Shown: piece by piece, positions 10,058 through 33,583 of the stretch
Position numbering within the stretch: position 1 is the stretch's first letter
How the letters are laid out: each line of letters starts with the position of its first letter
DNA from: Candidatus Heimdallarchaeum aukensis
Lineage (GTDB): Archaea > Asgardarchaeota > Heimdallarchaeia > Heimdallarchaeales > Heimdallarchaeaceae
Direction of reading: 5' to 3'
Length of the DNA stretch: 64,000 nucleotides
NCBI GenBank assembly: GCA_021513695.1
Contig: CP084166.1
Location: forward strand, 928,001-992,000
Position numbers and translations under genes: made by a program
The notes under the pieces: model-generated
What the model saw: only the letters and a program-made list of their open reading frames with translations
Databases searched by the model: none
Told to the model about the DNA's origin: nothing

Positions 10058-10324
10058 TTATCTTCTAACTATAAACTTCTTGGAGATAAAAAAACCTAAA
10101 CAAAGTAAAACTACAACACAAAAAATGGCTCTAGTAGATAAACCAAATTTACCAGGGTAAGAATCAGCATTAAGAGGGTCTAAACCATTTTGTATCTCTT
10201 AATAATCTGAATAACCATCTCCATCAGTATCAAGATTGTTAGGGTCTGTGTTATAATTGTATTCCTCTAAATTGGTTAAACCGTCATTATCACTATCTTC
10301 ATCTGCATCATGGTTTTTGTTAGC
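10058..10324 (-). pseudogene. C-terminal remnant of a cell-surface protein. It has calcium-binding D-x-D-x-D (thrombospondin type 3-like) repeats and a PGF-CTERM-like anchor (YPGKFG + TM + KKFIVRR). It is interrupted by an in-frame TAA and truncated by the distal end of CRISPR array 1.
   Basis: My own reverse-strand translation gives ..DADEDSDNDGLTNLEEYNYNTDPNNLDTDGDGYSDY*EIQNGLDPLNADSYPGKFGLSTRAIFCVVVLLCLGFFISKKFIVRR*. There is no N-terminal part: the array begins 18 nt upstream. Confidence 0.4.
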
Positions 10325-10341
10325 TCTGTTTTAGCATACTC

Positions 10342-13300
10342 ATTTTCACACTACTTAGTTCAGCTTAAACCTCGTACTTGCTTGCAGAAGCACCTAGCAC
10401 GTAGTAATTTTCACACTACTTAGTTCAGCTTAAACCTTTCGATAATGATGGTGTTAGTGGTGAAGTGCAAAATTTTCACACTACTTAGTTCAGCTTAAAC
10501 AATCTATCAAGTGTCTCATTTTTTACGTTTCCTAGATTTTCACACTACTTAGTTCAGCTTAAACAATAACGTTTGAACATTGTTCTCGAATTCTTCATAA
10601 ATTTTCACACTACTTAGTTCAGCTTAAACAGTTGATGAAGGTGTGACAAAGTGTGACACTTCGATATTTTCACACTACTTAGTTCAGCTTAAACATTCTA
10701 CTTTTTTCTCAATCAATTTACAAGTTAGAGCGTCATTTTCACACTACTTAGTTCAGCTTAAACAGAACTAGGATCAGTCTCGGTCCATTCAGAAACTCGA
10801 TTTTCACACTACTTAGTTCAGCTTAAACTCCTAAAATAATAACTGATCCTAAGAATCCTGATAAGATTTTCACACTACTTAGTTCAGCTTAAACCCAGAG
10901 TGAGAACGGGGTTATAGGTCAATAATAAAGAAATTTTCACACTACTTAGTTCAGCTTAAACTTTGTTTTGATTTTTCTTTCTTTCAGGATAGCATCAATT
11001 TTCACACTACTTAGTTCAGCTTAAACAAATGGCTAAAAGAACCACAAGAACTTCAAGAAAATAATTTTCACACTACTTAGTTCAGCTTAAACTTTACATT
11101 TATATAACTTCCCCAGAAGATTATATATAATTTTCACACTACTTAGTTCAGCTTAAACCAGCAATGTTGGCACATCTCCCCACTCTACTTTCTCATTTTC
11201 ACACTACTTAGTTCAGCTTAAACATTACTCTTTTTTCTTTACAAAACATTTATATATTATATTTTCACACTACTTAGTTCAGCTTAAACGTTATATTAAG
11301 TGTTAAATAGTTCTCTTTTCCTTCTTATTTTCACACTACTTAGTTCAGCTTAAACGTAAAAAAATGAGTAATTCAGAAGAACATTTTCACACTACTTAGT
11401 TCAGCTTAAACTGAAAACCTTATAGGCTGGCGTGAATACGCAAACCTAATTTTCACACTACTTAGTTCAGCTTAAACACGTTTCCAAGTAAATCTGTTAC
11501 TATTTCAAATTTATTTTCACACTACTTAGTTCAGCTTAAACTGATTTACGTTACCCTCATGTTTGTTATGTTTATTTATTTTCACACTACTTAGTTCAGC
11601 TTAAACGAATTTACTTTACACAATGATCGTGCTGATACTGTTTTATTTTCACACTACTTAGTTCAGCTTAAACACATTGCTTGATATTGGAATTTTATAT
11701 CTTAATATATTTTCACACTACTTAGTTCAGCTTAAACCTGACTTTTTTGGAGAATTTGGTTTCGCTGATAGTAATTTTCACACTACTTAGTTCAGCTTAA
11801 ACTAGAAAATTGTATTCTTCAAACTATACGTATAGATATTCCATTTTCACACTACTTAGTTCAGCTTAAACCTTAAATTATCTTCAAACCAATCAGAATA
11901 ATAAAGTTCATATTTTCACACTACTTAGTTCAGCTTAAACATAAATATCGCTATTTCTCCTTTCTTAACTGTTCTTAATTTTCACACTACTTAGTTCAGC
12001 TTAAACCATAATCTATCATAAAAAAGTCTCCTATATCATAAGTATTTTCACACTACTTAGTTCAGCTTAAACACTATTTTTCCACCTTCTCTTTCTTCCC
12101 ATTCTCTCTTATTTTCACACTACTTAGTTCAGCTTAAACTTTGTACTTCACTGTGCTTAATATCTCTACTTATACTATTTTCACACTACTTAGTTCAGCT
12201 TAAACTTTATCACCCCTCATATATTTATTATACTTCCTAAAATTTTCACACTACTTAGTTCAGCTTAAACCGTACACCCATTCCTTAGGTGTCCAGTCTA
12301 ATACTTATTTTCACACTACTTAGTTCAGCTTAAACTCACCTATATATATGATGTTCTAACACATAAAAATCATTTTCACACTACTTAGTTCAGCTTAAAC
12401 CTGACTTTTTTGGAGAATTTGGTTTCGCTGATAGTAATTTTCACACTACTTAGTTCAGCTTAAACTAGAAAATTGTATTCTTCAAACTATACGTATAGAT
12501 ATTCCATTTTCACACTACTTAGTTCAGCTTAAACCTTAAATTATCTTCAAACCAATCAGAATAATAAAGTTCATATTTTCACACTACTTAGTTCAGCTTA
12601 AACATAAATATCGCTATTTCTCCTTTCTTAACTGTTCTTAATTTTCACACTACTTAGTTCAGCTTAAACCATAATCTATCATAAAAAAGTCTCCTATATC
12701 ATAAGTATTTTCACACTACTTAGTTCAGCTTAAACACTATTTTTCCACCTTCTCTTTCTTCCCATTCTCTCTTATTTTCACACTACTTAGTTCAGCTTAA
12801 ACTTTGTACTTCACTGTGCTTAATATCTCTACTTATACTATTTTCACACTACTTAGTTCAGCTTAAACTTTATCACCCCTCATATATTTATTATACTTCC
12901 TAAAATTTTCACACTACTTAGTTCAGCTTAAACCGTACACCCATTCCTTAGGTGTCCAGTCTAATACTTATTTTCACACTACTTAGTTCAGCTTAAACTC
13001 ACCTATATATATGATGTTCTAACACATAAAAATCATTTTCACACTACTTAGTTCAGCTTAAACCTCATAACAAATGGATAAAGACTATTGAAATCAAGAA
13101 TTTTCACACTACTTAGTTCAGCTTAAACCAATTATTATCGCAACAGCCATCTCAAGATCACCTTATTTTCACACTACTTAGTTCAGCTTAAACGTTTTTG
13201 AATAACAGTCTGTGAAGAGAGAGAAGCAAATTTTCACACTACTTAGTTCAGCTTAAACGTCTTATTTCGTTAAAATCTTCAACAATAGCTTGTTGATTTT

Positions 13301-16300
13301 CACACTACTTAGTTCAGCTTAAACACTTTAGACGTGAAAAATTGGTTAATGGTTTTAGGTGATTTTCACACTACTTAGTTCAGCTTAAACGTAAAGAGAA
13401 AAGAAGAAAGAAAAAGAACGATAAAAGAATTTTCACACTACTTAGTTCAGCTTAAACGAGATATTGCAACATTTTGCTACAAAAATATCTAAAAAATTTT
13501 CACACTACTTAGTTCAGCTTAAACTTTGAAGTATCTGTGATGTCTTTTGTGACTACTCCTGATTTTCACACTACTTAGTTCAGCTTAAACCTTACAGAGG
13601 GAGAATATGCGGGACAATATATTATTACATTTTCACACTACTTAGTTCAGCTTAAACATAGAAGAAGAGCTCATTACAACTTTCCTTTTCCGTGATTTTC
13701 ACACTACTTAGTTCAGCTTAAACAAGCGTCAGTAGCACCTACAAGCGGGACATTCACAAGATTTTCACACTACTTAGTTCAGCTTAAACTCTATTTTATA
13801 TACTTTCTCTAATTCTAAACTTCTACTATTTTCACACTACTTAGTTCAGCTTAAACAGTAGAAATGAAGGGGGGGTTAGGAGCTAGAAAAAATTTTCACA
13901 CTACTTAGTTCAGCTTAAACCAATTCTGTTAATTTGTTTATTTCTTCCCATCTTTCATTTTCACACTACTTAGTTCAGCTTAAACGATAAATGGTACAAT
14001 CGTTTGAACCCTTTTAGAAGAAATTTTCACACTACTTAGTTCAGCTTAAACAAGGTTATCGCCTTTACATTTAGGGTTCTCACAAGTAATTTTCACACTA
14101 CTTAGTTCAGCTTAAACTATTTATGTAAAAGTCCTCTTCATCTATTATTAAACTATTTTCACACTACTTAGTTCAGCTTAAACACTATAACTTTAAGCAC
14201 TTGTTTTACTATATCGAAAAATTTTCACACTACTTAGTTCAGCTTAAACAGTCCGTTCTCGTTTCTTATTTCTTCGTCATCGGTTCTAATTTTCACACTA
14301 CTTAGTTCAGCTTAAACATGATTTTGTATAGTTTCCTCTCTTTATAAATGAAAATTTTCACACTACTTAGTTCAGCTTAAACTCAGCGTTTTGTAGTTCT
14401 ATTTTTCGTAAGTCGTCATATTTTCACACTACTTAGTTCAGCTTAAACCATTTCTCCACCTCTTTTTCATTTCTACTTGTTCTAATTTTCACACTACTTA
14501 GTTCAGCTTAAACTTGCTCTCTAAATATATTGCATACATTCCTTTTCTGATTTTCACACTACTTAGTTCAGCTTAAACTGAACAAACACTCACAATCTTA
14601 TCTAATCTTTCAAACGTATTTTCACACTACTTAGTTCAGCTTAAACAAACTGAAGTCATGTCAAAGTTAGAAGCCCAACTATATTTTCACACTACTTAGT
14701 TCAGCTTAAACGAGCTTTTACTGAAGCAGAACTAAAAAGAAATACCCCAAATTTTCACACTACTTAGTTCAGCTTAAACCATTGAATTCCTCTTTCTTCC
14801 TCTGCACAATAGTGAATTTTCACACTACTTAGTTCAGCTTAAACACGGTGCTCTGAAATGATGGAGTTTGAACAAAAATATTTTCACACTACTTAGTTCA
14901 GCTTAAACGTACAATTATGTTAAATATAGAAGAATAAAAAGGAATTTTCACACTACTTAGTTCAGCTTAAACGATAAAAATGGTAGAAGAGCATAAGAAG
15001 AATGAGCTTAATTTTCACACTACTTAGTTCAGCTTAAACTCTATCCTCCTTTTTTTTGGTTTGCAGTTTATACAAGAATTTTCACACTACTTAGTTCAGC
15101 TTAAACTTCATAGAACTTGATGTTAGGGTTAGGAAAAACCTCATTTTCACACTACTTAGTTCAGCTTAAACTGTAGCTTTGAAAGTTTATCATAGTTATG
15201 TGAGAATTATTTTCACACTACTTAGTTCAGCTTAAACAGATGAAATTTCCGAATTAGTTACTTTATTTCCGTCTGATTTTCACACTACTTAGTTCAGCTT
15301 AAACATTGGAGCTCTTCCCTTGACAATACAAATATTACAAATTTTCACACTACTTAGTTCAGCTTAAACGAACGATTACAGTATAGAACAGACGAATATT
15401 ATTATATTTTCACACTACTTAGTTCAGCTTAAACATCAGCAACTCTTTGCTGGTTCTCAAGAGCTTTTTGATTTTCACACTACTTAGTTCAGCTTAAACG
15501 TGAAAAGTCTCTTGTGTAGGTATATCGTGCTGCGTATTTTCACACTACTTAGTTCAGCTTAAACAGGTTCTCACTTTGGACAAAAGAAGCAAGTTTAGAC
15601 GAATTTTCACACTACTTAGTTCAGCTTAAACTTTCTCCTGAAAGAAGATCGTATGGTAACGAATACGTATTTTCACACTACTTAGTTCAGCTTAAACTCT
15701 ACCACAATGAAGATCATGAGAAGAAACCCACACATTTTCACACTACTTAGTTCAGCTTAAACATTTTTTTCACCCATAATCATTTCCACCCCTCTTTGAT
15801 TTTCACACTACTTAGTTCAGCTTAAACTCAAGGTCAAAATGGGGAAAAAGGTCGAACTATGGTATTTTCACACTACTTAGTTCAGCTTAAACAACGCTTG
15901 TTTTGGGGTTTCACACCCCAAAATCTTATTTTCACACTACTTAGTTCAGCTTAAACTCTGCTTTATCTTCTTCTTTTTCACAATCTCTATGAATTTTCAC
16001 ACTACTTAGTTCAGCTTAAACTTTGCACCTATTATATTTTAAGAGTAAAGAATATAATTTTCACACTACTTAGTTCAGCTTAAACCAGAGAAAGACGCGG
16101 GTTCAATTTCGTATAAGTAAGTAATTTTCACACTACTTAGTTCAGCTTAAACTATCTTCTTTATCTCTTTTTCTACTAACTCATTCTTATTTTCACACTA
16201 CTTAGTTCAGCTTAAACTAGATAAAGGAAGTTTAGATAAAGCGATACAAGAATTGCTAAATTTTCACACTACTTAGTTCAGCTTAAACAAGCGAGTTCAG

Positions 16301-16420
16301 TATCTTCTTTTTCCTCATAGACCTTAATTTTCACACTACTTAGTTCAGCTTAAACATTTATTCCTGCTATACGCAATAGACTTGAAAACGTATTTTCACA
16401 CTACTTAGTTCAGCTTAAAC
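10342..16420 (-). CRISPR. CRISPR array 1: 93 repeats and 92 spacers, of which 82 are unique. The repeat is ATTTTCACACTACTTAGTTCAGCTTAAAC on the + strand, the reverse complement of the array-2 repeat. Spacers are 27-43 nt, mostly 35-38. It is transcribed on the minus strand from the leader at 16421-16535.
   Basis: Perfectly conserved 29-nt direct repeats with a ~65-bp period, counted by reading through the array. Orientation was inferred from the conserved leader and from identity to the array-2 repeat. Confidence 0.97.
11738..13063. repeat. Tandem segmental duplication inside array 1. A block of 10 spacer+repeat units (11738-12400) is repeated, apparently identically, at 12401-13063 (663 bp per copy).
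   Basis: Spacers ctgacttttttggagaatttggtttcgctgatagta .. tcacctatatatatgatgttctaacacataaaaatc occur twice in the same order. Confidence 0.9.
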
Positions 16421-16535
16421 GAAGTTTATTTTCTTTTCTAGCTATATTTTTCTCTCGTTTTGTCACTCACCTTCCTGGTCGACCTCCAATAAGGTATTAA
16501 CTTTATAAATATTGACCAGATACATAAACGTTTAC
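16421..16535 (-). promoter_or_regulatory. CRISPR leader of array 1 (minus-strand orientation). It is ~95% identical to the array-2 leader and contains a TATA-like TTTATAAAG and a GGAGGTCGACCAGGAAGGTGAGTGACAAAA block.
   Basis: The reverse complement of 16421-16535 aligns almost base-for-base with 28858-28971, including the junction ..AAAATAAACTTC|GTTTAAG. Confidence 0.8.
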
Positions 16536-16569
16536 CTTATAAACAATGACTAGTACCATTAAATTTGCT

Positions 16570-20022: not shown

Positions 20023-20745
20023 TTGTTGATGAGGATTCTTATTTCTTTTAAGCCTAAATTTGATGTTTCAGAGGATGCCATAGTAAAACATGATATTCAA
20101 GGATTTATTTATAATCTAATCAAGTACAAAGATACTAAAGTTCTTTTAGATCATGATAAACATCATTTCAAATTTTTTTGTTTTAGCGATATTTTTCCTC
20201 AAGGTGATTTTAAAAAAGGAGAGACAAAAAATCTGTTAATTAGTTCTCCTACAAAAGAGCTAATAAATTTAATTGATGATAATCTTCCTCTTGAGAAATC
20301 CTATAGATTAGCTGGATTAACCATCGAAGTTATATCCAAAAAAACTTTTAACTTTCCCACAAAAAACAACTTTATTTCTGGAAGTCCTATAGTTTTATAC
20401 AAAGATAATACAAAGAATGAATATTTTAGCTTTAAGAAACACAAAAGTCTTAATTTCTTTCTCAATAGATTACAAGAAAATGCTGTGAAAAAGTATCAAA
20501 TTTACTATAACGATCCTGAATTTCAATTGTCTGGAAAGATTTTTGATACAATTGAATTTAGAAAGGAGGTTGCAGTTCACAACAGGAAACAAGGAAATGA
20601 ATTTATTCACATTGGCACTCTTTGGAAAAAATTAGAAAAAGAATACATAAAGAAAGAAGAAAGAAGGTTTTATCATTTTATCATGGAAAGTGGTCTTGGC
20701 GAAAAAAATAGTATGGGTTTTGGTTTTTTAAATCCTATTCAATAA
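20023..20745 (+). CDS. cas6: Cas6 endoribonuclease (type I-B).
   Basis: It is ~240 aa with the C-terminal glycine-rich loop GLGEKNSMGFGF, and it is the first gene of the cas operon. The likely start is the ATG at 20026. Confidence 0.85.
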   Translation: MLMRILISFKPKFDVSEDAIVKHDIQGFIYNLIKYKDTKVLLDHDKHHFKFFCFSDIFPQGDFKKGETKNLLISSPTKELINLIDDNLPLEKSYRLAGLTIEVISKKTFNFPTKNNFISGSPIVLYKDNTKNEYFSFKKHKSLNFFLNRLQENAVKKYQIYYNDPEFQLSGKIFDTIEFRKEVAVHNRKQGNEFIHIGTLWKKLEKEYIKKEERRFYHFIMESGLGEKNSMGFGFLNPIQ

Positions 20746-22863: not shown

Positions 22864-23785
22864 AATAATAAAAAATAGGTCTGAAATAGTTTTTTTGTAT
22901 GATGTTAGAGACGGTAATCCAAATGGTGACCCTGCTGATGGGAACAAGCCTAGGATTGATGAAACCAGTGGTATCAACATAGTAACTGATGTTCGACTAA
23001 AGAGAACAATAAGAGACTATATAAACAAGGTTAAAGGCCATGAAATTTTTGTTAAAAAGATAGAAGACTTAGAAGGGATAATCCAAACTTCTAAACAACG
23101 AGCACAAGATTTTCAGAATGATCCAGATAAGATTCTTTCTGAATGCGTGGATGTCAGGATGTTTGGGGGAACTATACCAATAAAAATTTCTGATAAGAAA
23201 GATGGTAGCATTACTTTTACTGGTCCCGTTCAATTCTCTATGGGGAGATCTCTTCACAGAGTCGAGTTAAAACATGTTAAAGGAACAGGAGCTTTTGCTT
23301 CTTCAGAAGGAAAGAAACAACAGACTTTTCGAGAAGAGTGGATACTACCTTATTCACTAATAAGCTTTTATGGTGTAATAAATGAGAATGGTGCAGAAGA
23401 TACACAGTTAACCGAAGAGGATGTTAAGCTTCTTGTAGAAAGTATCTGGAATGGGACTAATGATTTGTTAACAAGAAGTAAGATGGTTCATAGATCTAGA
23501 GTTCTTTTACAAATTATTTACCAAGAGAAAAACTTCCATGTCGGAGAGCTTGACAAAAAGATTAAGATGAAGGCTAAAGTTGAAGATGAAAAAATTAGAG
23601 GTACGGATGACTACACTCTTGAATTTGATAATTTTGTAGAAGCGATCAAAAATAACAAAGAAAAAGTAAAAATTATTCGTTACAAAGTAGATGACAGTAT
23701 TAATCTTGAATTTAATGGTGACAAAAAGACTATAGAAGAGATTCTAAAACTTACAGAATGTGAATTGGAAGAGCTGAAATTTTAA
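22847..23785 (+). CDS. cas7: Cas7 (Csh2) backbone subunit.
   Basis: The N-terminal signature LYDVRDGNPNGDPADGNKPR is typical of I-B/I-C Cas7. The true start is probably the ATG at 22859, preceded by GGTGA. Confidence 0.9.
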   Translation: MKKMSEIIKNRSEIVFLYDVRDGNPNGDPADGNKPRIDETSGINIVTDVRLKRTIRDYINKVKGHEIFVKKIEDLEGIIQTSKQRAQDFQNDPDKILSECVDVRMFGGTIPIKISDKKDGSITFTGPVQFSMGRSLHRVELKHVKGTGAFASSEGKKQQTFREEWILPYSLISFYGVINENGAEDTQLTEEDVKLLVESIWNGTNDLLTRSKMVHRSRVLLQIIYQEKNFHVGELDKKIKMKAKVEDEKIRGTDDYTLEFDNFVEAIKNNKEKVKIIRYKVDDSINLEFNGDKKTIEEILKLTECELEELKF

Positions 23786-23791
23786 TAATAG

Positions 23792-24553
23792 GTGAGACTA
23801 ATGCTAAAACAGGAAGCTGAAGTAAGAGAAGTTTTAGTTTTCGATATTTGGGGTGATTTTGCTCATTTTAAGAAAAACTATGCTACAACTTCAGCTCTTA
23901 CATACAATTTTCCTCCTCGAAATACTATTGCAGGAATAATTGGAGCAATTTTAGGTTTAAAGAGGGCAGATTTTCCTGAAAAATTGTCTCCTGAAAAGAG
24001 TTACATTGGTGTTTCAATACTCTCTCCAATAATGAAAAAAACTATTACAATGAATCTTATTCACACTAAACCTTCTGAATCACTTATATTCAAAAATAAT
24101 TTTGGTTATTTCAAAAAGCACACACAGATTCCTTTTCAATTTTTATCTAATATCTCATTTAGGGTGTATTTTTCAACTGACGATGAGGAAATGTTTTCAC
24201 AACTATATACATATCTTAAAAACCATAAGTCTCATTATACAGTTTCGTTAGGTTTGAGCAATCTACTTTGTAACTTTAAGTTAATAGGAAAAAAAACAAT
24301 AAGAAAAAAAGAAGTAGCTAACAAAGAAGTAGAGGTTTTAACAGTAATTCCGATGAACAAAGTCAAAGAAGTAAATGTGTTTAAAAATCCTAAAATGAAT
24401 ATCGAGAATTTACCCAGATTTATCGATAGTTCAAGAACAGTTCATGAATACCAGGAAGTTCTATCAAGCATGGATCCAGAAAAACCTCTTTTTGTAGTCC
24501 CTAGAGATACCTTATGGGAGATTGAAAATGACAAATTCATCAGTTTCCTCTGA
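23792..24553 (+). CDS. cas5: Cas5 (Cas5h/Cas5b).
   Basis: ~250 aa. The N-terminal LVFDIWGDFAHFKK..PPRNTIAGIIGAILG is typical of Cas5. It sits between cas7 and cas3. Confidence 0.85.
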   Translation: MRLMLKQEAEVREVLVFDIWGDFAHFKKNYATTSALTYNFPPRNTIAGIIGAILGLKRADFPEKLSPEKSYIGVSILSPIMKKTITMNLIHTKPSESLIFKNNFGYFKKHTQIPFQFLSNISFRVYFSTDDEEMFSQLYTYLKNHKSHYTVSLGLSNLLCNFKLIGKKTIRKKEVANKEVEVLTVIPMNKVKEVNVFKNPKMNIENLPRFIDSSRTVHEYQEVLSSMDPEKPLFVVPRDTLWEIENDKFISFL

Positions 24554-26990
24554 AAATCAGATAAACATTTTTTCTCACCCTAATAAAAATATTTTAGAAC
24601 ATTTAAGTGAGACAGAAAGAGAAATTCTAAATATCCTTGAAAAACTACAGCCCAATTTTTCAATCAAAAAAAACATTATTATCGAAATCGCTAGAATTTT
24701 AGCTTTAACACATGATATTGGAAAATGCACAATCTTTTTTCAAGAATATCTTCATTCAAACGAAGAAAATAACTTCAAAAAATTGGGAGAATATCAAAGT
24801 TCAAAACTTCACCACCATGGACTAATCTCTGCAGTTTTTACCTATTATACACTAAAGAAACTTTTAAATTCAAATAATGAGCAGTTCTATGACCTGAATA
24901 GTGGATATAAAGACCTATTACCTCATATAGGCTTTTTAACAACAAAAAAACATCATGGTAATTTAGGAAATTTTTATGATGAGATTATTATAAACAGAAC
25001 AAGTGAAGAAAAGATTAGACAGCAACTAGAAAATTTCCATCCCCAATTCGAAAATGTTGTCGAATTCATAAGAAATAAAATTAATATAACAATTTCATTT
25101 AATGAATTTTCAGAATCCTTTGGAGATTTAATTGATGAATTAGCTTTCAGTGATGAACTATTATTGAACTATTATGAAAATAGTAGAGATTGTGAACTTT
25201 ATCTATTTACTTTATTTTTACATTCAATCTTAACAGATGCAGATAAAACTTCTGCTATTGGTGTCTCTAAGCCTATTCTTCCATTTATTTCTTCTAACAA
25301 AATTATCAAAAACAGGAAAAAAATAATCCAGAAAAAAGGAAAAAAGACATATTTAGATAACTTAAGAGAGAATATTTACAAAGAAGTAATTGCAAAGATA
25401 GAAAAAACACCTTTAGATAACAAAATATTTACATTAACAGCTCCTACAGGTTCAGGAAAAACTCTCACAGTTTTTGAAGCAGCATTTAGATTGAAAGATA
25501 AAATTTTAAGGAGAACTAATATAGAAATGAAAATTATTTATTGCCTTCCATTTCTCAGCATCATTGATCAAAATGCTCACATTATTAACCAACTGCTAGA
25601 TCCTGACTCAGTTAAGTTTCTTCCTTCAACTCAACTACTAATTCATCATTACTTGGCAGAAGTTCAATACAGCTCTTATGAAGAAGATTATACCTTTGAT
25701 GAAAGTAGATTCCTAATTGAGGATTGGCATTCTTCAGTTATTATTACAACCTTTATTCAGCTTTTTCATAGTATTTTTACCAATAGAAATAGCAAGATAA
25801 GGAAACATCACAATATACAAAATTCTATCATAATACTTGATGAAGTTCAAAACATTCCTCATAAGTATTGGTTATTGATCAGGGAAGTTTTTCAAAGATT
25901 ATCAGAGATCGAGAATGTTTATATCATTTTTACAACAGCCACACAGCCTAAAATTTTTAGTTCAGAAGAGAAAGTTGTTGAATTACTTGAAAATAAGGAA
26001 AAATACTTTGAACAGTTAAGTAGAATTACTTTAGAACCAAAAATTGATAACAATATCACACTCAACGAGTTTATTTTAGAAATTAATGAGAAACTGCAAA
26101 AGAACAGTGACAAGGATATTCTAATTGTTGCGAATACAATCCGAGAAGCTCAAGAGATTTTTGACAGTATTAATTTTAAAAAAGATCATGATAAGTTATT
26201 TTTCCTTTCAAGTCAAATAATCCCTAGAAAGAGGAAAGAAAGAATTGAAGAAATAAAGAGAAAATTAGAAAAAGAAAAAGATAAAAGAGAGAGTAATGAA
26301 AAACGAATTATTTTAGTAACTACCCAATTAATTGAAGCAGGAGTAGATATCGATTTTGATATTGTAATAAGAGATTTAGGACCAATAGATTCTATAAATC
26401 AAGTAGCAGGAAGATGTAACAGAAACGGAGAAGAAGAAAAGGGAAAAACAATTGTTTATTCAGTCATTGACCAAAAAACAAAAAGATTATTTGCTTCATA
26501 CATTTATGACGGATTTATTTTAAGTAAAACGAAGGATGTTCTAAAAAACAAAAGAGTGATAGAAGAACAAGAATTCCTCAAAATCATTGACGATTATTAT
26601 TTAAGCATCGAAAAGACAGGGGACACAATAACCTCCACTAATATACTAGACTCTATCTTTAATTTAGAGTTTGATGAAATAGGTAAATTTAGCCTGATAG
26701 AAGAAAGAGCTGATCAAGTTCCTGTTTTTATTGAGATAGATAAAAAGGCAAAGGAAATTTGGGCAGAATATTTGGAAATATGGAATATTAAAGATTGGAA
26801 GAAAAGAAATGAGAAATTTATAAAAATCAAAAATGATCTCTATAGTAACTTAATTAACGTAGACAAGAAAAAAATCAAAACAATTGAGCAAATAAAGGGT
26901 TATTATTATATCGATTTTCAAAATGCTAGGAACTACTACGACAATGAAAAAGGTTTCATTGGGAAAGAAAAAGATGTTATTTTATTATAA
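24522..26990 (+). CDS. cas3: Cas3 with an N-terminal HD nuclease domain and a DExH helicase.
   Basis: HD motif LTHDIGK. Helicase motifs TAPTGSGKT, ILDEVQ, TATQP and VTTQLIEAGVDIDFD. 822 aa. Confidence 0.9.
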   Translation: MKMTNSSVSSENQINIFSHPNKNILEHLSETEREILNILEKLQPNFSIKKNIIIEIARILALTHDIGKCTIFFQEYLHSNEENNFKKLGEYQSSKLHHHGLISAVFTYYTLKKLLNSNNEQFYDLNSGYKDLLPHIGFLTTKKHHGNLGNFYDEIIINRTSEEKIRQQLENFHPQFENVVEFIRNKINITISFNEFSESFGDLIDELAFSDELLLNYYENSRDCELYLFTLFLHSILTDADKTSAIGVSKPILPFISSNKIIKNRKKIIQKKGKKTYLDNLRENIYKEVIAKIEKTPLDNKIFTLTAPTGSGKTLTVFEAAFRLKDKILRRTNIEMKIIYCLPFLSIIDQNAHIINQLLDPDSVKFLPSTQLLIHHYLAEVQYSSYEEDYTFDESRFLIEDWHSSVIITTFIQLFHSIFTNRNSKIRKHHNIQNSIIILDEVQNIPHKYWLLIREVFQRLSEIENVYIIFTTATQPKIFSSEEKVVELLENKEKYFEQLSRITLEPKIDNNITLNEFILEINEKLQKNSDKDILIVANTIREAQEIFDSINFKKDHDKLFFLSSQIIPRKRKERIEEIKRKLEKEKDKRESNEKRIILVTTQLIEAGVDIDFDIVIRDLGPIDSINQVAGRCNRNGEEEKGKTIVYSVIDQKTKRLFASYIYDGFILSKTKDVLKNKRVIEEQEFLKIIDDYYLSIEKTGDTITSTNILDSIFNLEFDEIGKFSLIEERADQVPVFIEIDKKAKEIWAEYLEIWNIKDWKKRNEKFIKIKNDLYSNLINVDKKKIKTIEQIKGYYYIDFQNARNYYDNEKGFIGKEKDVILL

Positions 26991-27002
26991 CGAAATGATG
27001 GA

Positions 27003-27031
27003 GTTCAAGCTAAACTAAGTAGTATGAAAAT
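27003..27031 (+). repeat. Solitary degenerate CRISPR repeat (26/29 identical: GTTCAAGCTAAACTAAGTAGTATGAAAAT) in the cas3-cas4 intergenic spacer. It is in the same orientation as the cas genes and array 2.
   Basis: Direct comparison with the array repeat GTTTAAGCTGAACTAAGTAGTGTGAAAAT shows 3 mismatches. No second repeat lies nearby. Confidence 0.8.
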
Positions 27032-27073
27032 TAGAGGTAGAAGTAATGGTATTAAATTCTTGGTGAAATTGTA

Positions 27074-27604
27074 ATGGTGGAGTTAAATCATATTAGCATT
27101 AAGAATACTGATTTTGCAGTAACTGGAGTAATGGTTCAATATTTATTTTCATGTAAAAGAGAATTGTGGTTTTTTACCAAAAAAATTGATTTCAACAAAG
27201 AGGATCAGAACATTCAAATTGGCAAAATAATACATGAAACAAGCTATAAACGAAATAAAAAAGAGTTTGACTTAGGTTTTGTAAAATTTGACTTAATTGA
27301 AACAAAAAACAGGATAATAATTTCTGAAATAAAAAAATCTTCAAAACTTTTGGAACCTGCAAAAATGCAACTTTTGTATTATGTTTACATTTTAAGTAAA
27401 ATAACTGAAAAAGAAGTAGAAGGAGAAATTAGAATTCCAAAAGAGAGAAAAAAAGTAAAGATTCAATTGCAAAACGAAGAAGAAAAATTAATTCAAAAAG
27501 CTTTGAGAGAGATTAAAGAAATTTCCTTACTGGAAAGACCTCCCAAAGCAGAAAAAAAATTTTATTGTAAGAATTGCGCTTATTACATTTTTTGCTGGGT
27601 TTGA
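27074..27604 (+). CDS. cas4: Cas4 (RecB-like nuclease with a C-terminal Cys cluster).
   Basis: 176 aa. An N-terminal Cys (FSCKREL), a C-terminal CKNCAYYIFC, and a RecB-like core (IGKIIHE). Confidence 0.85.
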   Translation: MVELNHISIKNTDFAVTGVMVQYLFSCKRELWFFTKKIDFNKEDQNIQIGKIIHETSYKRNKKEFDLGFVKFDLIETKNRIIISEIKKSSKLLEPAKMQLLYYVYILSKITEKEVEGEIRIPKERKKVKIQLQNEEEKLIQKALREIKEISLLERPPKAEKKFYCKNCAYYIFCWV

Positions 27605-28591
27605 GTGAAAAAAATGAAAGATTCTATTTACATTACAAAGGAAGGAGTAATTTACAGAAAAGATAATACTATTGTTTTTCAAAATCAAGAACAAAAGCAT
27701 ACTTTACCTATCGAAGCAGTGAAAGATATATATTGTATTGGCAAAGTAACTATAAGATCTGGAGCAGCTTATCAACTAATGGAAAAAAGGATTCCTGTAC
27801 ATTTTTTCGGAAAATATGGACACTATAGAGGAACATTACAACCAAAACAAGATCTAATCTCTGGAGAAGTAATAGTAAAACAAGTTCAACATTATACTGA
27901 TTACATAAAAAGAATAAAAATTGCAAAAGAGATGTTTAAAGGAATAAAACACAACATTCTCTGGGTTCTAAAATATTACAAATCAAAAAGAGATATAGAA
28001 GATGTAGTTGAAAAAATTGAACATGTTAATATTCAAGAAGAAATATTAAAAATAAATACATTAAGAAGTTTAGAAGGTCAAATATGGGAACTTTTCTATC
28101 AAGCTGCTGATACAATTTGTCCTTCATGGGGTTTTAGAAAAAGGACTAGAAGGCCTCCTTTAGATGAAGGAAATGCACTAATATCTTATGGAAACTCAGT
28201 TCTATATGGAAAAACAATTTCTGAAATATTCAAAACTTATCTTCATCCTGCAATTTCGTTTATACACGAACCAAGTGAAAGAAGGTACTCTTTAGCCTTA
28301 GATCTAGCTGATATTTTCAAACCAGTAATAGTTTTTAGAACAGTCTTCAGGCTTATAAATCAGAAAATAATTTCAAAGAAAGATTTTGAAAAAGAAGTAG
28401 GAGTCCAAATTTCAGAAAAAGGAAAAAAAGTATTTATCACAGAATTAGAAAAAACATTCACAACTACAGTAAGACATCCAAATCTGAAAAGAAATACCTC
28501 ATACCAGTTTTTGATAAGACTTGAAGGACTAAAAATAATGAAACATGTTCTAGGAGATAAAAAATATGAAAGCTTTAAAGCATGGTGGTAG
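27605..28591 (+). CDS. cas1: Cas1 integrase.
   Basis: 328 aa, sharing the N-terminal Cas1 fold signature (IYITKEGVIYRKDNTIVF). It is adjacent to and overlaps cas2. The likely start is the ATG at 27614. Confidence 0.9.
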   Translation: MKKMKDSIYITKEGVIYRKDNTIVFQNQEQKHTLPIEAVKDIYCIGKVTIRSGAAYQLMEKRIPVHFFGKYGHYRGTLQPKQDLISGEVIVKQVQHYTDYIKRIKIAKEMFKGIKHNILWVLKYYKSKRDIEDVVEKIEHVNIQEEILKINTLRSLEGQIWELFYQAADTICPSWGFRKRTRRPPLDEGNALISYGNSVLYGKTISEIFKTYLHPAISFIHEPSERRYSLALDLADIFKPVIVFRTVFRLINQKIISKKDFEKEVGVQISEKGKKVFITELEKTFTTTVRHPNLKRNTSYQFLIRLEGLKIMKHVLGDKKYESFKAWW

Positions 28592-28857
28592 AGATATACG
28601 TGATAATCGTTTATGACGTGGGAGAAGAAAGAGTAAATAGAATACATAAATTCTTGAAAGCATATTTAACATGGACACAAAATTCAGTATTTGAAGGAAA
28701 AATAACAAAAGCAACATTAGCTCAAATAAAAACAGGAATAAAAAGCATAATAAAAAAAGAAGTCGATTCAATAAAAATATTCAAAATAAAAGGAGAACAA
28801 TGGATGAATATTGAAATAATGGGAGTAGAAAAAAATAAGTTTCAGAATATAATTTAG
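28582..28857 (+). CDS. cas2: Cas2.
   Basis: 91 aa with the N-terminal VIIVYDV motif. It lies immediately upstream of the leader of array 2. Confidence 0.9.
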   Translation: MVVEIYVIIVYDVGEERVNRIHKFLKAYLTWTQNSVFEGKITKATLAQIKTGIKSIIKKEVDSIKIFKIKGEQWMNIEIMGVEKNKFQNII

Positions 28858-28971
28858 GTAAATCGTAAGAATCAGGTCGACATTTATAAAGATGATACAT
28901 TATTGGAGGTCGACCAGGAAGGTGAGTGACAAAAGGAAAGAAAAATATAACTAGAAAAGAAAATAAACTTC
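28858..28971 (+). promoter_or_regulatory. CRISPR leader of array 2 (TATA-like TTTATAAAG at ~28883). It is nearly identical to the array-1 leader.
   Basis: See the array-1 leader. It sits directly between the cas2 stop and the first repeat. Confidence 0.8.
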
Positions 28972-31900
28972 GTTTAAGCTGAACTAAGTAGTGTGAAAAT
29001 TTCTTTTGTTCTTTGGAGGAGGACAACCTTCAACGAGTTTAAGCTGAACTAAGTAGTGTGAAAATCAGTCTGGGTATATTTTATGCCCCTCAATATTTTG
29101 AGTTTAAGCTGAACTAAGTAGTGTGAAAATTGCTGGCTGGACTGGGCATAATTTCCAGAAATCTCTGTTTAAGCTGAACTAAGTAGTGTGAAAATAGTAA
29201 AATAGCTTTTATTTATTCCGTAGTAATATATGGTTTAAGCTGAACTAAGTAGTGTGAAAATCGCTATTGTAGTCGAGTTAGAAGATGGAGAGATTGAGTT
29301 TAAGCTGAACTAAGTAGTGTGAAAATAAATATATTGTGATGAATTGGATAAAAGAACTAAAAGTTTAAGCTGAACTAAGTAGTGTGAAAATAAACCAGAA
29401 GGAATGACTTTCATTCCTGCTACAGGTTTAAGCTGAACTAAGTAGTGTGAAAATTAATCAGAATAAAATGCTCATAATCATTGGTATAATAGTTTAAGCT
29501 GAACTAAGTAGTGTGAAAATGCAAAGCAATGAAAGGAGTGTTTTGTCTGGTGAGGTCGTTTAAGCTGAACTAAGTAGTGTGAAAATCAATCAGATTTGAG
29601 GGACAAAATAGTCCCGTTGGGACGTTTAAGCTGAACTAAGTAGTGTGAAAATACTGAAGAACAAGAAAAGAATATAAAAAGAACCAAGGTTTAAGCTGAA
29701 CTAAGTAGTGTGAAAATTAATATATCTATCGACTTGAACAAATTAGTTGAAGAGGGTTTAAGCTGAACTAAGTAGTGTGAAAATGGTAAATCCCCCAACA
29801 ATCCTGAAAGTGTTAAATTTGTTTAAGCTGAACTAAGTAGTGTGAAAATATTGTTCTTTTTTCAAATCATCTATTTTTTTTGCTCGTTTAAGCTGAACTA
29901 AGTAGTGTGAAAATTACAATTGACAGTAGTCACACACAAACCATTTAGGTGTTTAAGCTGAACTAAGTAGTGTGAAAATAAAATTCTTCGTGTGTCATAT
30001 AAAAGGCATCATCAGTTTAAGCTGAACTAAGTAGTGTGAAAATAGATCAGAGAGACTTGGGTAGAGTTAGTGAGATCTATGTTTAAGCTGAACTAAGTAG
30101 TGTGAAAATTACATATTTTTGAATAATTGAGACATGCATATGACGTTTAAGCTGAACTAAGTAGTGTGAAAATACAGCTCTCAACTGATAAGAGCGTTCT
30201 TTTTCATTGTTTAAGCTGAACTAAGTAGTGTGAAAATTTGTCAAAGTGTTTGTATAAGTGTCAATATAATCTGTTTAAGCTGAACTAAGTAGTGTGAAAA
30301 TATGTCTTTAGAGACTTGTTGAAGAGCAGGATTGTCAGGTTTAAGCTGAACTAAGTAGTGTGAAAATCAAGCATTTCTGCGATAACGACACCAGAACCAT
30401 TAAGTTTAAGCTGAACTAAGTAGTGTGAAAATTAAATGTGGTCGTGTATCGTTATATGGTGCTCTGAAATGTTTAAGCTGAACTAAGTAGTGTGAAAATA
30501 TATCTCCAGAGTGCCAAATTTCAACATTTGACACGTTTAAGCTGAACTAAGTAGTGTGAAAATCCAATTAATTAAGCCGCTGTTTCAAAAGGTGGTTCAG
30601 TTTAAGCTGAACTAAGTAGTGTGAAAATTTCGATGGATCCATAAAGGTAAATTAGGATCCCAAAAGTTTAAGCTGAACTAAGTAGTGTGAAAATAAAAAG
30701 CCAAGAGATGGATTGATGAACAAAAAAACCGTTTAAGCTGAACTAAGTAGTGTGAAAATCAGTCTGGATAGAGTTTGTGCCCATTAATATTCTGAATTGT
30801 TTAAGCTGAACTAAGTAGTGTGAAAATAGAGTAGGATTGTCAGATTGATCCATAAGGTATAGAAGTTTAAGCTGAACTAAGTAGTGTGAAAATGGTGACG
30901 CCACAAGCGAGGCATTCCCAAGCTCAATAGTTTAAGCTGAACTAAGTAGTGTGAAAATGGATTAAAAAATATGTCTCCTCTCGCTCGTTACGGGTTTAAG
31001 CTGAACTAAGTAGTGTGAAAATAATATCTTTAGATACCTGTTGAAGAGCGGAGTTGGTTTAAGCTGAACTAAGTAGTGTGAAAATCCAAAATTCTCGACT
31101 GCCTCTAAAGCAAATGAGAAAGTTTAAGCTGAACTAAGTAGTGTGAAAATTTTTTTTTCTGTCTGTTATTTCTTCTACTTCTTCTGTTTAAGCTGAACTA
31201 AGTAGTGTGAAAATTTATGATATGCGAACGTTTGCATGTTTGCGAATACAAGTTTAAGCTGAACTAAGTAGTGTGAAAATAGAAAACGTTTGGCTCGAAT
31301 GGATTGGTTTCTATGTCGTTTAAGCTGAACTAAGTAGTGTGAAAATTTGCTAAACCCGCCGCATAATCTTTTTTCTTTTATTTTGTTTAAGCTGAACTAA
31401 GTAGTGTGAAAATTAACCTGCAGAAATATCTTGTAAAATCTTGAATTCAACCTTGTTTAAGCTGAACTAAGTAGTGTGAAAATTAGTTTTGATTTGTAAA
31501 AGACGGATATCCACTTGTTGTGCTGTTTAAGCTGAACTAAGTAGTGTGAAAATATCAACACGTGGGTTTCTATCCAAATCTAATCCTCTGTTGTTTAAGC
31601 TGAACTAAGTAGTGTGAAAATAGCGATATAAAGAAGTTATCCTTTTCAGTATAATAAGGTTTAAGCTGAACTAAGTAGTGTGAAAATAAATTTCTAAAAA
31701 TATTGAAAGGTCAAAATCAAGATTGTTTAAGCTGAACTAAGTAGTGTGAAAATCTAACATGTGTAAGATTCATTGGGCCAATCCAAATTGTTTAAGCTGA
31801 ACTAAGTAGTGTGAAAATCTAAACACAATTTGCATGATGCCATGCTTGTTTTTTGTTTAAGCTGAACTAAGTAGTGTGAAAATGTTGGTTGTGTATAGTG

Positions 31901-33583
31901 TAAATAGATTTTTCTGATTGGGTTTAAGCTGAACTAAGTAGTGTGAAAATTTCTACTTCAAAGAATGAGCACCAATAGTTAAACCAGTTTAAGCTGAACT
32001 AAGTAGTGTGAAAATGCTTCATCTGCTAAAAGTTGTAGTTGTTCATAAAGGTTTAAGCTGAACTAAGTAGTGTGAAAATTGTGCTACATATATACACACC
32101 TATATCCTGTTTATCGTTTAAGCTGAACTAAGTAGTGTGAAAATATCCTGATAGGTGAGTCCTACAGGAGAAAGAAAAAGTTTAAGCTGAACTAAGTAGT
32201 GTGAAAATATCCTGATAGGTGAGTCCTACAGGAGAAAGAAAAAGTTTAAGCTGAACTAAGTAGTGTGAAAATCCCAATAGCATCCTCTTTTATCTGGGGC
32301 TTGGTTTATGTTTAAGCTGAACTAAGTAGTGTGAAAATCTGTGATTTCTGCGGAAATAAACATGTGACGGAAAGTTTAAGCTGAACTAAGTAGTGTGAAA
32401 ATGCAACTCTTTCCGTCCAGCGCACTAAAGCTGCTTTTGGGTTTAAGCTGAACTAAGTAGTGTGAAAATGTTTTTCATGGTAGCTTGCTACCAAAAATTT
32501 ACTTAAAAGTTTAAGCTGAACTAAGTAGTGTGAAAATGAGACTGTTAATAGCGAAGTCAGATTCCTCAAAAGGTGTTTAAGCTGAACTAAGTAGTGTGAA
32601 AATTTGTCTTTACACAGGGCATTCTCAGTTCTGGAGGAAGTTTAAGCTGAACTAAGTAGTGTGAAAATCACATAAACAAATTAGAAAGCGAAATAACCAC
32701 AGTTGTTTAAGCTGAACTAAGTAGTGTGAAAATCAATATTCTTCATCTTCTTCTAAATCATACAATAGCGTTTAAGCTGAACTAAGTAGTGTGAAAATAG
32801 AAAAGAGGAACCGTTGTTCTTAAAGGTAAAAATCGTTTAAGCTGAACTAAGTAGTGTGAAAATAAAGAGTATTGAACTCCTGGTTCAAAACTGATTTTGC
32901 AGTGTTTAAGCTGAACTAAGTAGTGTGAAAATTAATTGCTTTTTTGTCTGCATGACTTGGTAATTCAAAGTTTAAGCTGAACTAAGTAGTGTGAAAATTT
33001 CAAGGTGAGACCAACGATCCTGGTTACTTCGGTTGTTTAAGCTGAACTAAGTAGTGTGAAAATAATATGTAATTAAATAAGTTTTTATTGTGGTAAAATG
33101 TTTAAGCTGAACTAAGTAGTGTGAAAATACATTAAGAAAACGCTTACCATCTAAAGAAACAATCGTTTAAGCTGAACTAAGTAGTGTGAAAATTCATAAG
33201 TTGACCAATATTCAGAAATTACATAACGTTTAAGCTGAACTAAGTAGTGTGAAAATGAAAGCGTTTAGAATTGGTGGCGGTTCTGGTTGCAGGTTTAAGC
33301 TGAACTAAGTAGTGTGAAAATTACTGGGCAATGGAAAAAAGCTGTTGCCGCATTCAAGTTTAAGCTGAACTAAGTAGTGTGAAAATTAACTCACTCGCTC
33401 ACCCTCAGAGAGAGCCACAAACGTTTAAGCTGAACTAAGTAGTGTGAAAATTAATTTACGTCATGACTATGATGCGACCCCCAACGAGGTTTAAGCTGAA
33501 CTAAGTAGTGTGAAAATATTTGACTACTAGGTTTAGGTTTGAATATGAACCAGAGTTTAAGCTGAACTAAGTAGTGTGAAAAA
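28972..33583 (+). CRISPR. CRISPR array 2: 71 repeats and 70 spacers, of which 69 are unique. The repeat is GTTTAAGCTGAACTAAGTAGTGTGAAAAT. The terminal repeat is degenerate (..GAAAAA).
   Basis: 29-nt repeats with a ~65-bp period. The leader-distal last repeat has one mismatch. One spacer (atcctgataggtgagtcctacaggagaaagaaaaa) is present twice in tandem (32145-32179 and 32209-32243). Confidence 0.97.

What the first reader, a model, noticed from the sequence alone, without database searches (positions are those of the whole stretch)
27003..27031. Solitary degenerate CRISPR repeat inside the cas operon, between cas3 and cas4
A 29-nt sequence matching the array repeat at 26/29 positions sits in the 83-bp cas3-cas4 gap, in the same orientation as the cas mRNA. 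Because Cas6 cleaves within repeats, this could be a built-in processing site. It could split the interference module (cas6-8b-7-5-3) from the adaptation module (cas4-1-2). It could yield a degenerate repeat-derived small RNA for autoregulation. It could also be the scar of an ancient array or module junction.
Basis: seen in the sequence. Interest (0 to 1): 0.62.

Follow-up and report, generated by a model that had tools for sequence, protein, structure and literature searches.

The report
Lone CRISPR repeat inside cas operon
A single, slightly mutated copy of the CRISPR repeat really does sit between cas3 and cas4 of a type I-B system in an Asgard archaeon and is kept at that spot in all its known close relatives, but such lone repeats are an already catalogued kind of element and its function here remains inferred, not shown.

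Summary
Window 27003-27031 (+) matches the locus's 29-nt array repeat at 26/29 positions. It lies in the 83-bp cas3-cas4 gap of a complete type I-B operon, in the sense orientation; about 3e-7 such matches are expected by chance. The organism is Candidatus Heimdallarchaeum aukensis.

All five retrievable relatives (Cas3 84-100% identical) carry a lone repeat at the same place, in three sequence variants. Four of the five substitutions fall in the first 10 nt, and positions 11-21 are untouched. More distant I-B loci lack it, including one with the identical array repeat.

There is no leader, no second repeat, and no target for a downstream pseudo-spacer. The 23 nt next to the repeat are missing in one relative. 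So a CreA-like or mini-array guide, or a nascent array, is unlikely.

The most likely reading (about 0.4) is a single repeat unit that makes the cas polycistronic RNA a Cas6 substrate, separating the interference and adaptation messages. A slowly decaying relic is almost as likely (about 0.35). Evidence for selective constraint is only suggestive, and no transcript data exist.

It is a new member of a known kind (Shmakov et al. 2023). Interest is moderate.

The parts
27003..27031 (+). Single repeat unit (SRU), an ectopic degenerate CRISPR repeat: GTTCAAGCTAAACTAAGTAGTATGAAAAT, 26/29 identical to the array repeat
   Evidence: The same position is occupied by a repeat in L001, L002, L007, L008 and L009.
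27023..27024 (+). Predicted Cas6 cleavage site (between repeat positions 21 and 22). Inferred, not shown.
   Evidence: Inferred by analogy with type I-B Cas6b, which leaves an 8-nt 5' handle (established knowledge). Repeat positions 11-21 are invariant in all SRU variants.
27024..27031 (+). Would-be 8-nt crRNA-type 5' handle, AUGAAAAU (GUGAAAAU in array repeats)
   Evidence: The G22A state is the natural one in related array repeats of L018 and L050.
26991..27002 (+). 12-nt linker between the cas3 stop codon and the SRU. It shows no similarity to the CRISPR leader.
   Evidence: The linker is 14 nt in L008 and L009.
27032..27054 (+). 23-nt segment directly 3' of the SRU. It is present in the window type and in L009 and absent in L008. 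It holds GAGGT (27034-27038) and the start of a 6-codon mini-ORF (27046-27066, MVLNSW*).
   Evidence: Alignment A2; sequence.
27055..27073 (+). cas4 translation-initiation region, with GGTGA at 27062-27066, 7 nt before the ATG. It can be aligned in all variants.
24522..26990 (+). cas3 (HD nuclease plus helicase), the last gene of the interference module
   Evidence: NCBIfam TIGR01587 and TIGR01596. It is 100% identical to the Cas3 of Ca. Heimdallarchaeum aukensis.
27074..27604 (+). cas4, the first gene of the adaptation module (followed by cas1 at 27605-28591 and cas2 at 28582-28857)
   Evidence: NCBIfam TIGR00372, TIGR03641 and TIGR01573.
20023..20745 (+). cas6, the endoribonuclease presumed to recognise the repeat (likely ATG start at 20029)
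   Evidence: NCBIfam TIGR01877; sequence.
28972..33583 (+). CRISPR array 2: 71 repeats, same orientation as the SRU, leader at 28858-28971
10342..16420 (-). CRISPR array 1: 93 identical repeats, opposite orientation, homologous leader at about 16421-16540

Best explanation
The element is a genuine single repeat unit (SRU): one ectopic copy of the locus's own CRISPR repeat. It is fixed in the short spacer between the interference genes (cas6-cas8b-cas7-cas5-cas3) and the adaptation genes (cas4-cas1-cas2) of a type I-B operon, in a small clade of Heimdallarchaeaceae.

Proposed mechanism. The SRU lies in the sense orientation, there is no oligo-T terminator in the gap, and the repeat keeps its 3' two-thirds. 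So the polycistronic cas transcript should be recognised by the locus's own Cas6. Cas6 would cut between 27023 and 27024. The upstream product would be the interference-module RNA, ending in the repeat's 5' 21 nt. The downstream product would be the cas4-cas1-cas2 RNA, starting with a crRNA-type 8-nt handle (AUGAAAAU). This would uncouple the stability and translation of the two modules and tie the fate of the adaptation-module RNA to the level of Cas6 and Cascade proteins.

Shown: the sequence, its position and its orientation; its retention in all known relatives; the pattern of substitutions; the absence of a leader, a second repeat and a guide target.

Inferred: co-transcription through the gap, Cas6 recognition and cleavage, and any regulatory benefit.
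For: (1) The match is 26/29, sense orientation, and far beyond chance.

(2) A repeat occupies the same place in all five retrievable relatives, although their Cas3 proteins are only 84-87% identical and 4-fold sites differ by 0.19-0.38. The repeats differ pairwise at only 2-4 of 29 positions and carry no indel. The two flanking linkers did suffer a 2-nt and a 23-nt indel.

(3) Of the five lineage-specific substitutions (positions 2, 4, 5, 10, 22), four lie in the first 10 nt (P = 0.05). That end is needed for leader-repeat junction recognition during spacer integration, not for crRNA processing (Cheng et al. 2022, PMC9458426). Positions 11-21, next to the predicted cleavage site, never change.

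(4) G10A and G22A are the natural states in functional array repeats of related I-B systems (L011/L012, and L018/L050).

(5) The substitutions keep or strengthen the weak predicted stem.

(6) SRU-less relatives have overlapping or 8-bp cas3-cas4 junctions, which implies translational coupling. The SRU clade instead has its own GGTGA or GGAG before cas4.

(7) There is no run of five or more T in the gap, so read-through is plausible.
Against: No transcript or cleavage data exist.

The element is confined to one small clade. A locus with the identical array repeat (L003) works with an 8-bp junction, so the SRU is not needed for I-B function.

Each lineage has private substitutions, while the array repeats are 100% identical everywhere. 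The SRU is therefore under weaker constraint than array repeats.

Measured against the local flanks rather than gene-wide 4-fold sites, the conservation is not significant. Window versus L009 gives 4/29 differences in the SRU but only 2/132 downstream.

Only three independent variants exist. The canonical repeat has no significant fold, so the 'hairpin preserved' argument is weak.
Confidence: 0.4

Rival explanations
1. Non-functional relic. A spurious repeat duplication, or the last repeat of a collapsed array, became trapped between cas3 and cas4 in the ancestor of this clade. It is drifting slowly, and any Cas6 cleavage is incidental.
For: Shmakov et al. judge that many SRUs arise sporadically and have no function.

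The element is restricted to one shallow clade.

Every lineage carries private substitutions, whereas array repeats are invariant even in L003, whose Cas3 is only 43% identical.

Conservation does not exceed that of the local flanks.

Array collapse to a single repeat does happen in relatives: L010 has a leader plus one degenerate repeat, where L011 has an array.
Against: All six sequences retain the repeat and none has an indel in it, although both flanking linkers have indels.

Substitutions avoid the 3' 19 nt (1 of 5).

The repeats differ at 0.07-0.14 of positions, against 0.19-0.38 at 4-fold sites.

There is no leader remnant upstream, which a collapsed array should have left behind.
Confidence: 0.35
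2. Cas-protein sponge or decoy. The transcribed SRU binds Cas6 and/or Cas5 and Cas7 without guiding anything. It would damp crRNA loading, as proposed for viral SRUs (Racr RNA anti-CRISPRs) and for V-A SRUs.
For: The handle and core are intact in all variants. The idea has been proposed for SRUs in the literature (Camara-Wilpert 2023, abstract).
Against: One SRU copy competes with 164 array repeats in the same locus, so titration would be negligible unless the operon RNA greatly outnumbers pre-crRNA. No viral counterpart was found.
Confidence: 0.1
3. DNA-level recombination site. The SRU would serve as, or be the scar of, repeat-mediated exchange, insertion or deletion of the adaptation module plus leader. 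It is a direct repeat with array 2 and an inverted repeat with array 1.
For: The SRU sits exactly between the two modules.

Strains are mosaic. Positions 26862-27454 are identical, and the whole adaptation module plus leader is about 99% identical, in window, L001 and L002 (L007 ends at 27163 and is identical as far as it extends). Upstream, cas3 differs by 6-20%.

Shmakov et al. suggest a recombination role for some SRUs.
Against: The mosaic boundary is at 26861/26862, inside cas3 and 141 nt upstream of the SRU, not at it.

No deletion or inversion product was seen in any contig.

The window variant shares at most 11 uninterrupted nt with the array repeat, which makes it a poor recombination substrate (sequence; Cheng 2022).
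Confidence: 0.08
4. crRNA-like regulatory guide (CreA, mini-array or scaRNA type). The SRU supplies a 5' handle to the downstream sequence, which would guide Cascade to a partially matching promoter.
For: The 3' handle part of the repeat is conserved. In I-B systems, mini-arrays that target the cas6 promoter are known. A weak 9/10 seed match of the L009 pseudo-spacer lies just before cas6.
Against: No second repeat-like sequence with 11 or fewer mismatches lies anywhere near.

Seed matches in the 64-kb window and in L008 and L009 are at chance level, and the cas6-proximal site matches only 14/27 in the window.

The 23 nt that would form the seed are absent in L008, whose own pseudo-spacer has no match.

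The rest of the 3-Mb genome could not be searched.
Confidence: 0.07

Closest known systems
[quoted passage not shown] 2023, PMC10120712)
   Same: It is one near-canonical copy of the locus's own repeat. It lies outside any array, in an intergenic region between cas genes, next to cas3, and is conserved among closely related loci.
   Different: For I-B, that survey reports enrichment around cas6, not at cas3-cas4. This instance is in an Asgard archaeon and sits exactly at the boundary between the interference and adaptation modules, in the sense orientation within a very short (62-85 bp) gap.
CreA antitoxin RNAs and regulatory mini-arrays of type I systems (Li et al. 2021; Cheng et al. 2021/2022, PMC8501985 and PMC9458426)
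   Same: It is an ectopic, degenerate repeat inside a type I-B cas operon. The degeneration is concentrated in nucleotides needed for spacer acquisition rather than for RNA handling.
   Different: There is no second repeat, no conserved pseudo-spacer, no detectable target and no adjacent toxin-like gene. The repeat is far less degenerate (1-3 mismatches) than CreA repeats.
Virus-borne SRUs and RNA anti-CRISPRs (Faure/Medvedeva et al. 2019, PMC6858448; Camara-Wilpert et al. 2023, PMC10651486)
   Same: It is a solitary repeat that could bind Cas6 or Cascade subunits without providing a guide.
   Different: It is encoded by the host, inside its own cas operon. No viral copy of this repeat was found in IMG/VR.
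Engineered Cas6/Csy4 cleavage sites used to split synthetic polycistronic RNAs (for example Cas6f-based tools, PMC13478208)
   Same: The proposed mechanism is the same: a repeat placed between cistrons lets Cas6 cut the operon RNA and insulate the cistrons from each other.
   Different: Those are artificial constructs. As far as my literature searches show, a natural use inside a cas operon has not been demonstrated.

Membership tests
SRU / ectopic CRISPR repeat in a cas locus | Sequence clearly derived from the locus's own array repeat | tested here: met
   26/29 identity, with a chance expectation of 3.5e-7. The L008 and L009 variants are 28/29 identical.
SRU / ectopic CRISPR repeat in a cas locus | Stands alone: no neighbouring repeat at spacer distance and not part of an array | tested here: met
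   No other sequence with 9 or fewer mismatches lies outside the arrays. The nearest array repeat is 1,941 nt away.
SRU / ectopic CRISPR repeat in a cas locus | Position conserved in closely related loci (the criterion of the Shmakov pipeline) | tested here: met
   L001, L002, L007, L008 and L009 all carry it at the same position.
Regulatory mini-array / CreA-like crRNA-like RNA | Two repeat-like sequences flanking a 20-60 nt pseudo-spacer | tested here: not met
   A mismatch scan up to 11/29 finds no partner near 27003-27031.
Regulatory mini-array / CreA-like crRNA-like RNA | Pseudo-spacer with a seed-anchored partial match (10 nt or more) to a promoter in or near the locus | tested here: not met
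   Only chance-level 9/10 seed hits were found in the window and L009, and none in L008. The genome outside the 64-kb window was not searched.
Regulatory mini-array / CreA-like crRNA-like RNA | Pseudo-spacer conserved or co-varying among relatives | tested here: not met
   The 23 nt adjacent to the repeat are absent in L008.
Functional CRISPR array (minimal or nascent) | Leader sequence immediately upstream of the first repeat | tested here: not met
   The upstream 120 nt show no similarity to either leader (score within shuffles; 9/30 identities in the last 30 nt, against 29/30 between the two leaders).
Functional CRISPR array (minimal or nascent) | Spacer acquisition or turnover at the site | tested here: not met
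   The repeat stays single in all six sequences, although the neighbouring arrays carry different spacers in each contig.
Cas6 substrate (processing site) | Sense orientation within a transcribed unit | tested here: inconclusive
   The orientation matches the cas genes and the leader-defined array sense. Transcription itself cannot be tested here.
Cas6 substrate (processing site) | Retention of the nucleotides Cas6 recognises, and actual cleavage 8 nt from the 3' end | not testable with these tools
   Positions 11-21 and 23-29 are intact in all variants. However, the recognition determinants of this Cas6 are unknown and no RNA data are available.
Viral SRU / RNA anti-CRISPR | Encoded on a virus or other mobile element | tested here: not met
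   The element lies inside the host cas operon. The IMG/VR scan gave a single 19-nt coincidental match at a gene junction.

The most novel reading that the evidence does not exclude
The lone repeat is a selected post-transcriptional switch. Cas6 cuts the cas operon RNA at the repeat, so the cas4-cas1-cas2 message acquires a crRNA-type 5' handle. Cas5 and Cas7 (Cascade backbone) could then load onto that handle and cover the cas4 ribosome-binding site. Adaptation-gene expression would thereby be made to depend on how much free Cas6 and Cascade protein the cell has. This would be a natural, self-encoded 'Cas6 insulator plus feedback' between the interference and adaptation modules.
Probability: 0.12. 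Interest if true: 0.7.

Novelty: new member of a known kind. Interest (0 to 1): 0.4.

Why it matters
If Cas6 does cut here, this would be a natural case of a CRISPR repeat used as an intra-operon RNA processing signal. It would link the expression of the spacer-acquisition genes to the crRNA-processing machinery, a regulatory layer not demonstrated for any CRISPR-Cas system. It would also give a simple, testable handle on how interference and adaptation are balanced. If it does not cut, the case is still useful. It is a dated example of how slowly an ectopic repeat decays, and of which positions drift first, in a lineage (Asgard archaea) where CRISPR biology is almost unexplored.

Tried and rejected
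(1) Guide-RNA reading. I scanned the window, L008 and L009 with the 34-36 nt downstream of the repeat, using type I seed rules. Only chance-level hits appeared. The hit just before cas6 in L009 is 9/10 in the seed but only 14/27 at the equivalent window site, so I rejected it.

(2) Second degenerate repeat (mini-array). None was found with 11 or fewer mismatches.

(3) Collapsed array with a leader. There is no leader similarity upstream of the repeat.

(4) Stable local RNA structure in the gap. The z-scores were about 0 for all three variants. Rfam gave only sub-threshold CRISPR-DR41 hits on array repeats and nothing on the SRU.

(5) Viral origin or a viral counterpart. One IMG/VR hit turned out to be a 19-nt coincidence at a gene junction.

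(6) More relatives. An exact DNA pattern from the conserved cas3 3' end and a Cas4 protein query against metagenome contigs both returned nothing. The genome-contig scan returned no relative closer than 44% Cas3 identity. A protein search with the Cas3 C-terminal 180 aa unexpectedly returned no hits. Cluster look-ups show that the clade is exhausted in the 15-billion-protein collection.

(7) The SRU as the recombination breakpoint of the strain mosaic. The boundary is 141 nt upstream of the repeat.

Full report
**1. The observation**

Window 27003-27031 (+) reads GTTCAAGCTAAACTAAGTAGTATGAAAAT. The window holds two CRISPR arrays with the 29-nt repeat GTTTAAGCTGAACTAAGTAGTGTGAAAAT.
- Array 1 spans 10342-16420 and has 93 identical copies on the minus strand.
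- Array 2 spans 28972-33583 and has 71 copies on the plus strand. Only its last copy differs, by one base.

A search allowing three mismatches returns these 164 array copies plus exactly one other site, 27003-27031, with mismatches T4C, G10A and G22A. The next best non-array match has 10 mismatches. Composition-matched shuffles never gave 6 or fewer mismatches. The analytic expectation for 26 or more matches out of 29 is 3.5e-7 per window.

NCBIfam models identify the genes, all on the + strand:
- cas6, 20023-20745
- cas8b, 20851-22863
- cas7, 22847-23785
- cas5, 23792-24553
- cas3, 24522-26990
- cas4, 27074-27604
- cas1, 27605-28591
- cas2, 28582-28857

The repeat therefore lies in an 83-bp cas3-cas4 gap, 12 nt after the cas3 stop codon and 42 nt before the cas4 ATG. 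Both arrays are preceded on their GTTT side by a homologous leader of about 100 nt (29 of the last 30 nt identical). This fixes GTTT->AAAT as the transcribed sense. The lone repeat has the same sense as the cas genes.

**2. Organism**

The Cas3 protein is 100% identical to a protein that NCBI names from Candidatus Heimdallarchaeum aukensis, on a 3.08-Mb contig. That is the closed Asgard genome of Wu et al. 2022 (PMC8813620). The paper describes the CRISPR-Cas loci and spacers but does not mention this element.

**3. Conservation**

Cas4 and Cas3 homologues were traced to their contigs. Five metagenome contigs belong to the same clade (Cas3 84-100% identical), and all carry a lone repeat at the same place.

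| Locus | Coordinates | Variant |
|---|---|---|
| L001 | 1263-1291 | identical to the window |
| L002 | 723-751 | identical to the window |
| L007 | 3957-3985 | identical to the window |
| L009 | 7139-7167 | GATTAAGCTGAACTAAGTAGTGTGAAAAT (only T2A) |
| L008 (Heimdallarchaeaceae MAG GCA_054387415.1) | 3463-3491 | GTTTTAGCTGAACTAAGTAGTGTGAAAAT (only A5T) |

L001, L002 and L008 have the same array repeat as the window but different spacers. Cluster look-ups show that these are all the members present in a 15-billion-protein collection. Further scans found nothing more.

Outside the clade the element is absent.
- L003 has the identical array repeat (Cas3 43%, Cas4 61% identical) but only an 8-bp cas3-cas4 junction.
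- L006 and L010-L014 have overlapping cas3-cas4 genes.
- A survey of 45 further I-B loci that have an array within reach found no lone repeat at this junction.

**4. How constrained is it?**

Raw divergence at 4-fold degenerate sites between the three variant lineages is 0.19-0.38. The repeats differ at 2-4 of 29 positions, that is 0.07-0.14. The repeat has no indel, whereas the linker before it has a 2-nt indel and the one after it a 23-nt indel.

Of the five substitutions (positions 2, 4, 5, 10, 22), four lie in the first 10 nt (P = 0.05). Positions 11-21 never change. Position 22 and position 10 take the same states (A) in functional array repeats of related systems. Examples are ...GTAGTATGGAAAG/C in L018 and L050, and GTTTAAGTTAAAC... 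in L011 and L012.

This is the pattern reported for ectopic repeats. The nucleotides needed for spacer integration degenerate, and those needed for RNA handling persist (Cheng et al. 2022, PMC9458426).

Three points weigh against strong constraint.
- Array repeats are 100% identical across all these lineages, yet each lone repeat has private changes.
- The local flanks are themselves little diverged. Window versus L009 gives 4/29 differences in the repeat but 2/132 downstream.
- Only three independent variants exist.

I regard constraint on the 3' two-thirds as suggestive, not established.

**5. Structure**

The canonical repeat has no significant fold (-1.5 kcal/mol, z = 0.08). In that weak fold, T4C and G10A convert G-U pairs to C-G and A-U (-4.0 kcal/mol, z = -2.35), and G22A is unpaired. 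The L008 and L009 variants fold as weakly as the array repeat, and the whole gap has no significant structure. The hairpin is therefore not destroyed, but the test has little discriminating power. Rfam gives nothing at the site.

**6. What it is not**

- Not a nascent or collapsed array with a leader. The upstream sequence is the 3' end of cas3 and shows no leader similarity. The repeat never expanded, although neighbouring arrays turn over.
- Not a mini-array or CreA-like guide. There is no second repeat. The pseudo-spacer has no seed-anchored target above chance in the window, L008 or L009. The 23 nt that would be the seed are absent in L008.
- Not a viral element. The single IMG/VR hit is a 19-nt coincidence at a gene junction.
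- Not the breakpoint of the strain mosaic. Positions 26862-27454 are identical in window, L001, L002 and L007 (L007 ends at 27163), while cas3 upstream differs by 6-20%. The boundary is thus 141 nt upstream of the repeat.

**7. Most likely mechanism**

A cognate repeat in the sense orientation inside an operon, with no oligo-T terminator in the gap, should be bound and cut by the locus's Cas6 wherever the operon RNA runs through it. By analogy with type I-B Cas6b, which leaves an 8-nt 5' handle (established knowledge), the cut would fall between 27023 and 27024. The L008 and L009 variants differ from the array repeat only at position 5 or 2, so cleavage there is hard to avoid. The window variant has three changes, at positions that vary naturally.

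The consequence would be separate interference-module and adaptation-module RNAs, the latter starting with AUGAAAAU. Consistent with this uncoupling, relatives that lack the repeat have overlapping or 8-bp cas3-cas4 junctions. The clade that has the repeat has its own GGTGA or GGAG before cas4.

Whether this is selected or merely tolerated cannot be decided here. My estimates are:

| Explanation | Probability |
|---|---|
| Cas6 site on the operon RNA | about 0.40 |
| Drifting relic | about 0.35 |
| Cas-protein decoy | about 0.10 |
| DNA-level recombination role | about 0.08 |
| Regulatory guide | about 0.07 |

**8. Comparison with what is known**

Standalone repeat-like sequences in cas loci were catalogued systematically by Shmakov et al. 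(2023; PMC10120712). They distinguish mini-arrays, which are regulatory guides, from isolated single repeat units (SRUs). They note that many SRUs are probably spurious and that some are conserved. They suggest recombination or effector down-regulation as possible roles. For I-B they report enrichment around cas6.

The present element meets all three defining features of an SRU and fails the tests for a mini-array or CreA, for an array and for a viral SRU (see the membership table). My literature searches found no demonstrated natural Cas6 site inside a cas operon. Engineered Cas6 sites are used for exactly this purpose in synthetic operons.

**9. Verdict**

The element is real and conserved within its clade. 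The Cas6 operon-splitting idea is plausible and easily testable but is not supported by any direct evidence here. Interest is 0.4.

Noticed in passing
window 26862-27454, compared with L001, L002 and L007: Strain-level mosaic. The last 129 nt of cas3, the gap and the first ~380 nt of cas4 are 100% identical among four sequences (L007 as far as its end at 27163). The whole cas4-cas1-cas2-leader block is about 99% identical in window, L001 and L002. Upstream of 26861, cas3 differs by 6-20%. This suggests recombination, or a sweep of the adaptation module across strains with divergent interference modules.
   Followed up: partly
L001 ~1120-1160 (equivalent to window ~26822-26861): L001 has a 40-nt deletion near the 3' end of cas3. 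It shifts the frame and creates an early stop, which lengthens the untranslated gap before cas4 to 178 nt. This may be a cas3 allele truncated at the C terminus.
   Followed up: no
L010 5063-5091, compared with L011 11403-11431: In a Heimdallarchaeota relative (Cas3 44% identical), the same cas2-leader region is followed by an array in L011. In L010 (a 70-kb contig) it is followed by only one degenerate repeat and then unrelated genes. This is a natural example of an array collapsed to a single repeat.
   Followed up: partly
window 27046-27066: A six-codon mini-ORF (MVLNSW*) is preceded by GAGGT (27034-27038). Its TGA stop overlaps the GGTGA in front of cas4. It is kept as MILNSW* in L009 and is absent in L008. 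It may be a leader peptide or coupling device, or may mean nothing.
   Followed up: no
window 32116-32272; 11774-11940 and 12437-12603: Array 2 contains two adjacent identical spacers (a 100% periodic stretch). Array 1 contains a block of repeats and spacers that recurs about 663 nt away. Both are internal duplications within the arrays.
   Followed up: no
window 16421-16540 (-) and 28858-28971 (+): The two arrays flank the cas operon in opposite orientations and have nearly identical leaders of about 100 nt. Array 1 is separated from cas6 by two minus-strand genes.
   Followed up: partly
window 18047-19525 (-): A 492-aa protein with a winged-helix HTH domain (HTH_24, TrmB-like) is encoded divergently upstream of cas6. 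A similar gene sits upstream of cas6 in L011. It is probably a protein regulator of the cas operon. The neighbouring 501-aa ORF (16570-18075, -) has no Pfam match.
   Followed up: partly
window 10200-10342 (-): Array 1 ends with a perfect repeat, with no degenerate terminal copy. It runs directly into sequence that looks protein-coding, with repeated D-x-D-x-D-G-like motifs in the translation.
   Followed up: no
L016, L018, L050: Array repeats of the same 29-nt family (GTTT...GTAGT.TGGAAAG/C) occur in an Atabeyarchaeum, a Thermoplasmatota and an Altarchaeum I-B locus. The conserved core is C13, G17-T21, T23-G24 and A26-A28.
   Followed up: partly
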